Assembly (NCBI GenBank): GCA_000165345.1
Contig: CM000432.1
Location: 832,001-896,000, forward strand
Length of the DNA: 64,000 nucleotides
Reading direction: 5' to 3'
The notes under the pieces were generated by a model, which did no database searches, was not told where the DNA came from, and saw only the letters and a list, made by a program, of their open reading frames with translations. Positions 43,199-43,534 of the stretch are shown here, piece after piece. Each line of letters opens with the position of its first letter. The stretch's first letter is position 1. Position numbers and translations under genes: made by a program.

Positions 43199-43534
43199 TT
43201 AGGCATCAGCTGGCTTGTCTTGTTGAGCAGCAGGTTCAGCAGCTGGAGCTTCAGCAGCTGGGGCATCAGCTGGCTTATCCTGTGGAGCAGGTTCAGCAGG
43301 GGCAGCAGGAGCTTGGGCTGCTGGTGCATCAGCAGCTGGAGGATTATTGGGAGCAGGCTCGGACTTCTTTGGTTCTTCTGGCTTTTGTTGAGCTTGGTTG
43401 CTGATTGGAGCTGGATTCTTTACAGCCTTGGCTAATTGAGCCTTCTTTTCAGCTAATTCTCTTTGTTTGTTAGCATCTGCTGCAGATTTATTTTCAGCAA
43501 CTTTAGTTTCTGGCTTTGATGATGAACAACCCAT
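43199..43534 (-). CDS. Small (111 aa) predicted N-myristoylated and palmitoylated Ala/Pro/Glu-rich protein
   Basis: ATG start with A at -3. N-terminus MGCSSSK (Gly2, Cys3, Ser6). Remainder is AP/AE/KP low-complexity sequence. Locally elevated GC. Confidence 0.55.
   Translation of the reverse strand: MGCSSSKPETKVAENKSAADANKQRELAEKKAQLAKAVKNPAPISNQAQQKPEEPKKSEPAPNNPPAADAPAAQAPAAPAEPAPQDKPADAPAAEAPAAEPAAQQDKPADA

What the first reader, a model, noticed from the sequence alone, without database searches (positions are those of the whole stretch)
43199..43534. Small dual-acylated Ala/Pro-rich protein
The ORF begins MGCSSSK, a canonical myristoylation (Gly2, Ser6) and palmitoylation (Cys3) signal. 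The rest is disordered AP/AE/KP-rich sequence with elevated GC. Short acylated disordered proteins in apicomplexans are often pellicle or inner-membrane-complex associated.
Basis: partly seen in the sequence, partly recalled or inferred. Interest (0 to 1): 0.5.

Follow-up and report, generated by a model that had tools for sequence, protein, structure and literature searches.

The report
Known Cryptosporidium antigen gene Cp23
This short gene is Cp23, the long-studied immunodominant antigen of the diarrhoeal parasite Cryptosporidium parvum.

Summary
The ORF is real. It lies at 43199-43534 on the minus strand and encodes 111 aa starting MGCSSSK. It is Cryptosporidium parvum Cp23 (P23, 27-kDa antigen, cgd4_3620). 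It is 97% identical to annotated Cp23, and its neighbour is 100% identical to a C. parvum Iowa II protein.

Published mass spectrometry shows myristate on Gly2 and palmitate on Cys3 of the peptide GCSSSKPETK, which this ORF encodes (Haserick 2017). Published immuno-EM and inducible knockout show that the protein sits at the pellicle, is essential and is needed for gliding (Watson 2025).

What I add:
- Syntenic orthologues exist in five further intestinal Cryptosporidium lineages.
- The protein has two modules. The lipidated basic head (residues 1-57) is nearly invariant (pN/pS 0.02-0.11) and has a predicted helix at 15-39, so it is not all disordered.
- The Ala/Pro-rich tail drifts in sequence and length but keeps its charge (about -7) and a C-terminal Q-D/E-K-P-A-D/E-A motif.
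- The raised GC comes from Ala/Pro codons (GC3 is only 0.22).
- No relative is detectable outside this group.
- Conserved non-coding blocks flank the gene.

Interest as a discovery is low.

The parts
43199..43534 (-). Cp23 (cgd4_3620) coding sequence: 111 codons plus the TAA stop at 43199-43201. Single exon.
   Evidence: ORF list. 96-97% identity to proteins named immunodominant antigen Cp23 or 23 kDa sporozoite surface antigen. The exact protein is encoded on two 1.1-Mb Cryptosporidium chromosome records. The DNA is 99.99% identical to one of them over 20 kb.
43514..43534 (-). Codons 1-7, MGCSSSK: the dual-acylation signal. Met1 is removed, Gly2 is N-myristoylated and Cys3 is S-palmitoylated.
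   Evidence: The PROSITE pattern is met, and this is the only such ORF of 84 in the window. M1, G2, C3, S5, S6, K7 and P8 are invariant in 9 orthologues. Published MS/MS on the identical peptide GCSSSKPETK (PMC5549699).
43364..43534 (-). Conserved basic 'head', residues 1-57, net charge +5.
   Evidence: 89-100% amino-acid identity across 8 lineages, against 52-94% in the tail. pN/pS is 0.02-0.11 with pS 0.31-0.71. The +5 charge is identical in all 8.
43418..43492 (-). Predicted alpha-helix, residues 15-39 (NKSAADANKQRELAEKKAQLAKAVK). It is invariant among all nine orthologous sequences aligned.
   Evidence: AlphaFold2 predicts H15-39, with block pLDDT 83 and 82. N15 to N40 are invariant. The helix is not amphipathic: its hydrophobic moment of 0.15 is no higher than in shuffles.
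43202..43363 (-). Acidic Ala/Pro-rich disordered 'tail', residues 58-111. QDKPADA occurs twice (85-91 and 105-111), and the second copy forms the C-terminus.
   Evidence: A+P makes up 0.67 of the tail, it has no hydrophobic residues, and its charge is -7. pLDDT is 47-63 with no secondary structure. Length is 50-69 aa and identity to C. parvum falls to 52-67% in the five more distant lineages (87-94% in C. hominis and C. meleagridis), yet the charge is -7 in 7 of 8 lineages and the last 7 residues are kept as Q/E-D/E/N-K-P-A/V-D/E-A/V. Short DNA tandem repeats of period 15 and 9.
43989..44047 (-). Conserved non-coding block 1, about 455-515 nt upstream of the ATG. It contains GCATGCGCATGC, TGGCGCC and CATGTAGGAA(A/G)AAAATATAGGT. 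It is probably promoter or cis-regulatory DNA, possibly shared with the divergent gene at 44684.
   Evidence: 60-77% of columns are invariant across 6 species, against 0-10% in the surrounding intergenic DNA. The block is unique in the window. GCATGC-type and TGGCGCC motifs are strongly over-represented in the window.
43863..43918 (-). Conserved non-coding block 2 (AAAGACCAGACATTAAT...TGTGTGCATAATTTGTGA).
   Evidence: 40-43% of columns are invariant across 6 species.
43664..43776 (-). Conserved non-coding block 3, 130-240 nt upstream of the ATG (TAGACGGC...ATTGACAGGACATA...AATTCATGCATTAAGGATTTGATTGGATT...TAGACA). It is either 5'UTR or proximal promoter.
   Evidence: 33-73% of columns are invariant. 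One-base indels inside the block rule out coding. There is no conserved RNA structure: -5.2 kcal/mol with covariation about 0. No Rfam match.
43040..43059 (-). A 20-nt element, ATTAAGGTTGTTAATCTATA, invariant in 6 species and lying 140-160 nt after the stop codon. It is probably a 3'UTR or 3'-end-processing element.
   Evidence: Alignment. It is a single, exact occurrence in the window, with 0.01 expected by chance.

Best explanation
The ORF is the gene for Cp23 (also called P23 or the 27-kDa antigen; cgd4_3620) of Cryptosporidium parvum.

Proposed mechanism:
1. The protein is made in the cytosol and has no signal peptide.
2. Met1 is removed, N-myristoyltransferase puts myristate on Gly2, and a membrane-bound palmitoyl-transferase then adds palmitate to Cys3. 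These two lipids lock the protein onto the cytoplasmic face of a pellicle membrane, either the inner leaflet of the plasma membrane or the outer face of the inner membrane complex.
3. The adjacent basic head (net +5) probably adds electrostatic attraction to acidic lipids.
4. The invariant, non-amphipathic helix at residues 15-39 is most likely the docking site for a conserved protein partner.
5. The acidic Ala/Pro-rich tail (net -7) projects away from the membrane as an extended, flexible arm and ends in a conserved QDKPADA motif.
6. In this position the protein is required for gliding motility of merozoites, and hence for reinvasion.

Shown by published experiment: the two lipids and their positions, the pellicle location, essentiality and the gliding block.
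Shown here: the gene's identity, its synteny, the head/tail architecture, purifying selection on the head, and conservation of tail charge and C-terminal motif.
Inferred: the electrostatic contribution, the helix as partner-binding site, the tail as a spacer or arm, and which of the two membranes holds the anchor.
For: Identity:
- The protein is 96-97% identical to proteins named Cp23 or 23 kDa sporozoite surface antigen.
- The exact protein is encoded on Cryptosporidium chromosome records, and the DNA is 99.99-100% identical over 12-20 kb.
- The neighbouring 582-aa ORF is 100% identical to a C. parvum Iowa II protein.

Gene model:
- There is an in-frame stop 8 codons upstream of the ATG.

Acylation:
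- The myristoylation motif is met, and it is unique among the 84 ORFs in the window.
- M1, G2, C3, S5, S6 and K7 are invariant in 9 orthologues.
- MS/MS places myristate on Gly and palmitate on Cys of GCSSSKPETK (PMC5549699).

Location and function:
- Immunogold and expansion microscopy place the protein at the pellicle and not in micronemes.
- The diCre knockout blocks growth in vitro and in mice.
- Merozoites egress but do not glide, and C-terminal tagging was not tolerated (PMC12368253).

Architecture:
- Head pN/pS is 0.02-0.11.
- Helix 15-39 has pLDDT about 83, and the rest of the protein is unstructured.
- Head charge is +5 and tail charge is -7, both conserved despite tail identity falling to 52% (52-94% across the seven other lineages) and tail lengths of 50-69 aa.
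- The conserved C-terminal heptad fits the reported intolerance to a C-terminal tag.
- The calculated mass is 11.1 kDa against the 23-27 kDa gel names. That is the anomalous migration expected of an acidic, Pro-rich, lipidated disordered protein.
Against: - The older literature and the database names call it a sporozoite surface antigen that is shed in trails and is a target of neutralising antibodies. Anti-Cp23 antibodies also correlate with protection in children (cited in PMC12368253). Both are hard to reconcile with a purely cytoplasmic-face location. Watson et al. state that they cannot exclude some trafficking to the outer surface.
- Spatial proteomics had predicted a microneme location (cited).
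- No binding partner is known.
- The helix is supported only by a shallow-alignment AlphaFold2 model (6 near-identical sequences, mean pLDDT 63).
- The gene is reported absent from gastric Cryptosporidium species (PMC5146892; PMC13125899). So whatever it does for gliding is not universal in the genus.
Confidence: 0.9

Rival explanations
1. This is the classical view. Cp23 is exposed on the outer surface of sporozoites and merozoites and is shed in gliding trails. It acts as an adhesin or surface coat component, and antibodies neutralise the parasite by binding it there.
For: - Database names such as '23 kDa sporozoite surface antigen'.
- Earlier reports of surface and trail staining, protective monoclonal antibodies, and the correlation of anti-Cp23 IgA/IgG with protection, all as cited in PMC12368253 and PMC5549699.
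- Loss of Cp23 blocks gliding, which a surface adhesin could also explain.
Against: - The sequence has no signal peptide, no transmembrane segment and no GPI signal. The only hydrophobic features are the two N-terminal lipids, and these are added in the cytosol.
- Watson et al. found no Cp23 in trails and no signal on truly non-permeabilised sporozoites, and their validated antibody did not neutralise the parasite.
- The head is nearly invariant between species (pN/pS 0.02-0.11). That is unlike typical exposed, immune-selected surface antigens.
Confidence: 0.08
2. Cp23 is the functional stand-in for GAP45 in intestinal Cryptosporidium. The lipidated N-terminus sits in the plasma membrane, the helix and the extended Ala/Pro tail span the space to the inner membrane complex, and the conserved C-terminal motif docks onto the motor complex. 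It would thereby hold the pellicle together and position the glideosome.
For: - Several GAP45-family hallmarks are shared (PMC4231161): N-terminal myristoyl plus palmitoyl anchor, an extended helical or Pro-rich middle, anomalous SDS-PAGE migration, pellicle location and a requirement for gliding.
- GAP45 is reported to be poorly conserved or absent in Cryptosporidium, and a compensating protein has been proposed (PMC9250747).
- The C-terminal heptad is conserved and a C-terminal tag was not tolerated.
- From general polymer geometry, 111 residues with a polyproline-II-like tail could reach roughly 20-30 nm. This is my estimate and was not computed.
Against: - There is no detectable sequence similarity to anything outside the Cp23 group among 1.84 billion representative proteins, and no Pfam family.
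- Cp23 has no folded C-terminal domain and no Cys other than Cys3, whereas GAP45 is anchored and binds MLC1-MyoA through a conserved C-terminal domain.
- It is a quarter to a half the size of GAP45-family proteins.
- It is absent from gastric Cryptosporidium species.
- The published work does not report a pellicle-cohesion defect.
Confidence: 0.15
3. The ORF is a chance open frame in a GC-rich low-complexity stretch and not a gene.
For: - The sequence is low-complexity and contains short DNA tandem repeats.
- Overlapping ORFs of 59 and 71 aa exist in other frames.
- An ORF of 111 aa is not extremely improbable in 64 kb.
Against: - Synteny and frame are conserved in 6 lineages, with pN/pS 0.02-0.11 at near-saturated synonymous divergence.
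- Peptides from this frame have been identified by mass spectrometry.
- A genetically validated antibody and a knockout phenotype exist.
Confidence: 0

Closest known systems
Cp23 / P23 / 27-kDa immunodominant antigen of Cryptosporidium parvum and C. hominis (cgd4_3620)
   Same: It is this gene. The protein is 97% identical to UniProt Q8I0N2-type Cp23 and identical over residues 12-111 to an early C. parvum clone. The chromosome context is the same. The N-terminal peptide is the one shown to be acylated.
   Different: Nothing of substance differs. The window allele differs from the C. hominis allele at 3-4 tail positions.
GAP45 family (GAP45, GAP70, GAP80) of apicomplexan glideosome-associated proteins
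   Same: Both have an N-terminal myristoyl plus palmitoyl anchor, an extended helical or proline-rich region, anomalously slow SDS-PAGE migration, a pellicle location and a requirement for gliding or invasion (PMC4231161).
   Different: There is no detectable homology. Cp23 has 111 aa, against a predicted 45 kDa for GAP80, and has only a 25-residue helix. It lacks the conserved C-terminal MLC1/MyoA- and IMC-binding domain, has no additional cysteines, and is restricted to intestinal Cryptosporidium species.
BASP1 (NAP-22, CAP-23) and MARCKS-type myristoylated, Ala/Pro/Glu/Lys-rich intrinsically disordered membrane-cortex proteins of animals. This comparison rests on my own knowledge of that family.
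   Same: All are small, N-myristoylated proteins with a basic membrane-proximal segment followed by an acidic Ala/Pro-rich disordered tail. All lack a globular domain and run at about twice their real mass on gels.
   Different: There is no match to any Pfam family, BASP1 included, at E up to 1. Cp23 also carries a palmitate, has a conserved helix, and occurs in an unrelated lineage. The likeness is in composition and logic, not in descent.
IMC sub-compartment proteins (ISP1-4) of Toxoplasma and Plasmodium. This comparison rests on my own knowledge.
   Same: Both are small pellicle proteins targeted by N-terminal myristoylation and palmitoylation.
   Different: ISPs have a folded PH-like C-terminal domain. 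Cp23 has none and shows no sequence match to any PDB chain.

Membership tests
Cp23 / P23 orthologous group (cgd4_3620) | High sequence identity over the full length to proteins annotated as Cp23 or P23 | tested here: met
   E-values are 2.8e-49 to 1.6e-45. Identity is 96-97% to C. hominis and C. parvum Cp23 and 94% to C. meleagridis.
Cp23 / P23 orthologous group (cgd4_3620) | Same chromosomal position (conserved neighbours) | tested here: met
   The exact protein is found on 1.1-Mb Cryptosporidium chromosomes with the same neighbours, and the DNA is 99.99% identical over 20 kb. The neighbour equals a C. parvum Iowa II protein. The same small-gene and 582-aa-gene arrangement occurs in 5 more lineages.
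Cp23 / P23 orthologous group (cgd4_3620) | N-terminal tryptic peptide GCSSSKPETK, the peptide on which the lipids were mapped | tested here: met
   Residues 2-11 of the window ORF are GCSSSKPETK, and the same peptide is reported in PMC5549699.
Dually acylated (N-myristoyl, S-palmitoyl) proteins | Met-Gly start fitting the N-myristoyltransferase consensus G-{EDRKHPFYW}-x(2)-[STAGCN]-{P}, with no upstream alternative start | tested here: met
   G-C-S-S-S-K fits the pattern, and it is the only one of 84 window ORFs that does. An in-frame stop lies 8 codons upstream. The motif is invariant in 9 orthologues apart from S4A in C. canis.
Dually acylated (N-myristoyl, S-palmitoyl) proteins | A cysteine close to the myristoylated glycine | tested here: met
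   Cys3 is the only Cys in the protein and is invariant.
Dually acylated (N-myristoyl, S-palmitoyl) proteins | Lipids actually attached to the native protein | not testable with these tools
   This was shown by others. HCD MS/MS of GCSSSKPETK plus myristate plus palmitate gave m/z 736.4573, 2+ (PMC5549699).
GAP45 family | N-terminal myristoylation and palmitoylation that anchor the protein to the plasma membrane | tested here: met
   The motif is present and the lipids are shown by MS. Which membrane holds the anchor is not resolved.
GAP45 family | Long central coiled-coil or helical region spanning the gap between plasma membrane and IMC | tested here: inconclusive
   One predicted 25-residue helix is followed by an unstructured Ala/Pro-rich tail. 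Whether this can span the gap was not computed.
GAP45 family | Conserved C-terminal domain that binds MLC1-MyoA and targets the IMC (PMC4231161) | tested here: not met
   Exhaustive phmmer against 1.84 billion representatives returned only the Cp23 cluster. There is no Pfam hit, no folded C-terminal domain and no Cys beyond Cys3.
BASP1 / NAP-22 family | Match to the family profile | tested here: not met
   No Pfam-A family matches at E up to 1. Only composition and N-myristoylation are alike.
ISP (IMC sub-compartment protein) family | Folded PH-like domain after the acylated N-terminus | tested here: not met
   The AlphaFold2 model shows a single helix and otherwise a chain without regular structure. 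There is no significant PDB sequence match: the best is E = 0.44, to an unrelated bacterial protein.

The most novel reading that the evidence does not exclude
Cp23 is a lineage-specific miniature analogue of GAP45. It would be a dually lipidated tether whose invariant helix and conserved C-terminal QDKPADA motif connect the plasma membrane to the glideosome or inner membrane complex in intestinal Cryptosporidium, filling the gap left by the weak or absent canonical GAP45. Its charge-conserved Ala/Pro tail would act as a molecular spacer. The 'surface antigen' reputation of a leading vaccine candidate would then rest on an intracellular motor scaffold.
Probability: 0.15. Interest if true: 0.55.

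Novelty: already known. Interest (0 to 1): 0.08.

Why it matters
Cp23 is a leading serodiagnostic marker and vaccine candidate for cryptosporidiosis, a major cause of childhood diarrhoea. Its lipid anchors and pellicle location bear on whether antibodies can reach it at all. None of that is new: the gene, its acylation, its location and its essentiality are published.

The modest additions here could guide mutagenesis and promoter work, but they do not change the picture:
- an almost invariant lipidated head with a predicted helix;
- a tail conserved in charge and terminal motif but not in sequence;
- conserved non-coding blocks on both sides of the gene.

Tried and rejected
- Pfam scan of the protein found no family at E up to 1.
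- PDB sequence search gave only a chance match, E = 0.44.
- Exhaustive phmmer against 1.84 billion representative proteins found only its own cluster, so there are no distant relatives.
- I tried to reach gastric or deep-branching Cryptosporidium species through the syntenic 582-aa neighbour, first as a single sequence and then as an 8-sequence profile. The same 8 intestinal-clade proteins came back both times. The literature says p23 is absent from gastric species.
I reran it with 6 near-identical sequences, so the model rests on a shallow alignment.
- I tested whether the predicted helix is amphipathic, which would suggest membrane binding. Its hydrophobic moment is no higher than in shuffles, so that idea was rejected.
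- I tested whether upstream conserved block 3 is a structured RNA or a small ORF. There is no covariation, the energy is only -5.2 kcal/mol, there is no Rfam match, and 1-nt indels rule out coding.
- A full-text search for the epitope string QDKPAD found nothing. My recollection that this is a mapped neutralising epitope therefore stays unverified and is not used.
- The 187-aa database entry P0005 looked like an upstream-extended form. It is a chimera of an unrelated N-terminus with Cp23 residues 12-111, not an alternative start.

Full report
**Observation.** The window holds an ATG-to-stop ORF of 111 codons at exactly 43199-43534, on the minus strand.
- It reads MGCSSSKPETKVAENKSAADANKQRELAEKKAQLAKAVKNPAPISNQAQQKPEEPKKSEPAPNNPPAADAPAAQAPAAPAEPAPQDKPADAPAAEAPAAEPAAQQDKPADA.
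- Translating further upstream in the same frame meets a stop 8 codons before the ATG, with no other start between, so the N-terminus cannot be lengthened without splicing.
- Gly2-Cys3-Ser-Ser-Ser6-Lys7 satisfies the PROSITE N-myristoylation pattern. Among the 84 ATG-initiated ORFs of at least 50 aa in all six frames of the window, it is the only one that does.
- The composition is Ala 29%, Pro 17%, Lys 12% and Glu 9%.
- GC is 0.49 against 0.24-0.28 in the flanks. Third-position GC is only 0.22, while first and second positions are 0.71 and 0.55. The raised GC is therefore a by-product of Ala and Pro codons and not a sign of foreign DNA.

**Identity.**
- A search of 5.8 billion proteins returned three clusters, all Cryptosporidium: 'immunodominant antigen' of C. 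hominis, '23 kDa sporozoite surface antigen' of C. parvum, and a C. meleagridis protein. Cluster members include UniProt Q8I0N2, 'Immunodominant antigen Cp23'.
- The exact 111-aa protein is encoded on two 1.1-Mb Cryptosporidium chromosome records and on many short-read assemblies. The window DNA is 99.99% identical to one record over 20.3 kb and 100% identical to another assembly over 12.4 kb.
- The neighbouring 582-aa ORF (40852-42600, +) is 100% identical to a C. parvum Iowa II hypothetical protein.
- The window is therefore C. parvum chromosome 4. The ORF is Cp23, which has the gene id cgd4_3620 in the literature.

**What is already known.**
- Haserick et al. 2017 (PMC5549699) identified by tandem mass spectrometry the N-terminal peptide GCSSSKPETK, lacking Met1, with myristate on Gly and palmitate on Cys. 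They noted the absence of a signal peptide. That peptide is residues 2-11 of the window ORF.
- Watson et al. 2025 (PMC12368253) could not knock the gene out or tag its C-terminus. They built an inducible diCre knockout and validated a monoclonal antibody genetically.
[quoted passage not shown] It was not in micronemes or trails, and probably not exposed on intact sporozoites.
- Its loss stopped growth in culture and in mice. Merozoites egressed but did not glide.
It is, however, a rediscovery of a gene first described as an antigen in 1986.

**What I could add: orthologues.**
- Using the 582-aa neighbour as a handle, I fetched the syntenic loci of Cryptosporidium chipmunk genotype I, C. ubiquitum, C. 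canis, C. felis and an unnamed Cryptosporidium in run SRR31860986.
- Each has a small gene of 107-126 aa on the opposite strand, just after the neighbour. Each starts MGC(S/A)SSKPETKV.

**What I could add: head and tail.**
- Residues 1-57 are 89-100% identical to C. parvum, even where the neighbouring protein is only 40-64% identical. In this head, pN/pS is 0.02-0.11 while pS is 0.31-0.71, which shows strong purifying selection at the protein level.
- Residues 58 to the end are 52-67% identical to C. parvum in the five more distant lineages (87-94% in C. hominis and C. meleagridis) and 50-69 aa long. They keep an A+P fraction of 0.49-0.69, a net charge of -7 (one lineage -8), and a C-terminal heptad Q/E-D/E/N-K-P-A/V-D/E-A/V. 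The head is +5 in every lineage.
- AlphaFold2 on a shallow alignment predicts one helix at residues 15-39 (pLDDT about 83) and nothing else of note. The helix is not amphipathic, so it looks like a protein-binding element and not a membrane-binding one.
- The calculated mass is 11.1 kDa against the 23-27 kDa gel names.
- The conserved C-terminal motif fits the reported failure of C-terminal tagging.

**Distribution.**
- Exhaustive phmmer against 1.84 billion representative proteins found only the Cp23 cluster.
- Pfam and PDB gave nothing.
- A profile of the neighbour found no orthologue outside the same intestinal clade.
- Two genome papers report p23 absent from the gastric species C. andersoni, C. 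muris and C. proliferans.
- Cp23 is therefore an essential but lineage-restricted gene.

**Mechanism.** The best-supported account has these steps:
1. The protein is synthesised in the cytosol, Met1 is removed and Gly2 is N-myristoylated.
2. Palmitoylation of Cys3 at the target membrane gives stable attachment to the cytoplasmic face of a pellicle membrane.
3. The basic head helps membrane binding.
4. The invariant helix binds a partner.
5. The acidic Ala/Pro tail projects as a flexible arm.
6. The whole protein is needed for gliding.

The lipids, the location and the phenotype are shown by others. The architecture and selection pattern are shown here. The roles of the head charge, the helix and the tail are inferred.

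**Rival explanations.**
- Classical 'exposed surface antigen' view. This is weakened by the absence of any secretion signal and by Watson's permeabilisation data, but it is not fully excluded.
- GAP45-like tether. This is attractive because GAP45 is reported to be poorly conserved or absent in Cryptosporidium (PMC9250747), and because GAP45-family proteins share the acylated N-terminus, extended middle, anomalous gel migration and motility role (PMC4231161). However, Cp23 lacks the defining conserved C-terminal domain and shows no detectable homology, so it cannot be filed as a member.
- Chance ORF. This is refuted by selection, synteny and proteomics.

**Surroundings.**
- A six-species alignment of the whole interval shows that most intergenic DNA has 0-10% invariant columns. 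Three blocks upstream of cp23 reach 40-77%: 43989-44047, 43863-43918 and 43664-43776. A 20-nt element 140-160 nt after the stop (43040-43059) is identical in all six species.
- None of these recurs in the window. None is a known RNA family. Block 3 shows no conserved RNA fold.
- Block 1 carries GCATGC repeats and TGGCGCC. In the window, TGCATGCA occurs 13 times against 0.7 expected, and TGGCGCC gives 14 strand-hits against 0.3 expected, almost always between genes. To my knowledge these correspond to the AP2-type and E2F-type motifs described for Cryptosporidium promoters.
- The blocks are most simply gene-specific regulatory or UTR sequences.

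Noticed in passing
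window 43989-44047, 43863-43918, 43664-43776 (upstream of cp23, read on the minus strand) and 43040-43059 (downstream): These non-coding blocks are conserved across six Cryptosporidium lineages, with 40-77% invariant columns against 0-10% in the rest of the intergenic DNA. One is a 20-nt element, ATTAAGGTTGTTAATCTATA, that is identical in all six and lies 140-160 nt after the stop. They are not coding (1-nt indels), have no Rfam match, show no conserved RNA fold in block 3, and each is unique in the window. They are presumably promoter, UTR or 3'-end signals of cp23.
   Followed up: partly
window-wide; for example 3432, 11937, 12453, 37188, 37197, 50645, 54783, 54853, 57250 (TGCATGCA) and 3806, 25486, 25500, 34127, 44019, 52647, 55382 (TGGCGCC): The palindromic octamer TGCATGCA occurs 13 times against 0.71 expected. 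TGGCGCC gives 14 strand-hits at 9 sites against 0.33 expected. Almost all lie between ORFs and they often occur in pairs. From my own knowledge, they match the AP2-type and E2F-type promoter motifs described for Cryptosporidium.
   Followed up: partly
window 27839-30418(-), 30811-33477(-), 34273-37053(+), 37376-40396(-): Four adjacent ORFs of 770-1000 aa are distant paralogues of one another (23-27% identity, E down to 1e-41). Most have signal-peptide-like N-termini, and none has a Pfam match. This looks like a local Cryptosporidium-specific secreted-protein gene family next to cp23.
   Followed up: partly
window 1-64000 (large ORFs): Most of the roughly 20 large ORFs begin with a hydrophobic, signal-peptide-like segment. 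None of the 9 tested has a significant Pfam hit (E <= 0.001); the 582-aa neighbour has only a sub-threshold TrbM match (E = 0.047, below the curated cut-off). Cp23 therefore sits in a stretch of chromosome 4 that is rich in lineage-specific putative secreted proteins.
   Followed up: no
window 44684-47632 (+), core about 45000-47000: The divergently transcribed neighbour encodes a protein of about 970 aa with a very long Ser/Gly/Thr/Arg/Pro low-complexity core containing runs such as PSSTPSSTPSSTP, GGASGGASGG and SRSRSRSR. Its GC is 0.45-0.54 in a 30% GC genome. It is length-polymorphic between isolates: the gene models are 991 and 967 aa, and identity is only 94%, with indels, over window ~45576-46611.
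   Followed up: partly
window 19624-20346(+) and 21086-24775(+); 55736-57142(+) and 57745-58611(+): There are two further local paralogue pairs. The 240-aa ORF matches the C-terminal 180 aa of the adjacent 1229-aa ORF at 38% identity. The other two adjacent ORFs share a 63%-identical N-terminal signal region and a 27%-identical body.
   Followed up: no
protein P0005 (MetaClust UPI000015601B), not in the window: This 187-aa database entry clusters with Cp23. It is a chimera of an unrelated 87-residue N-terminal segment fused to Cp23 residues 12-111. It is probably a cDNA-cloning or assembly artefact and not an upstream-extended isoform.
   Followed up: partly
window 43658-43819 (+), 43220-43435 (+), 43150-43329 (-): Short ORFs of 53, 71 and 59 aa overlap cp23 or its conserved upstream block. 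The one at 43658-43819 is interrupted by 1-nt indels in other species. The other two are in alternative frames of the low-complexity tail. They are best regarded as spurious.
   Followed up: partly
window 1-64000: No tRNA genes were found and no Rfam family reached its gathering threshold anywhere in the 64 kb.
   Followed up: yes
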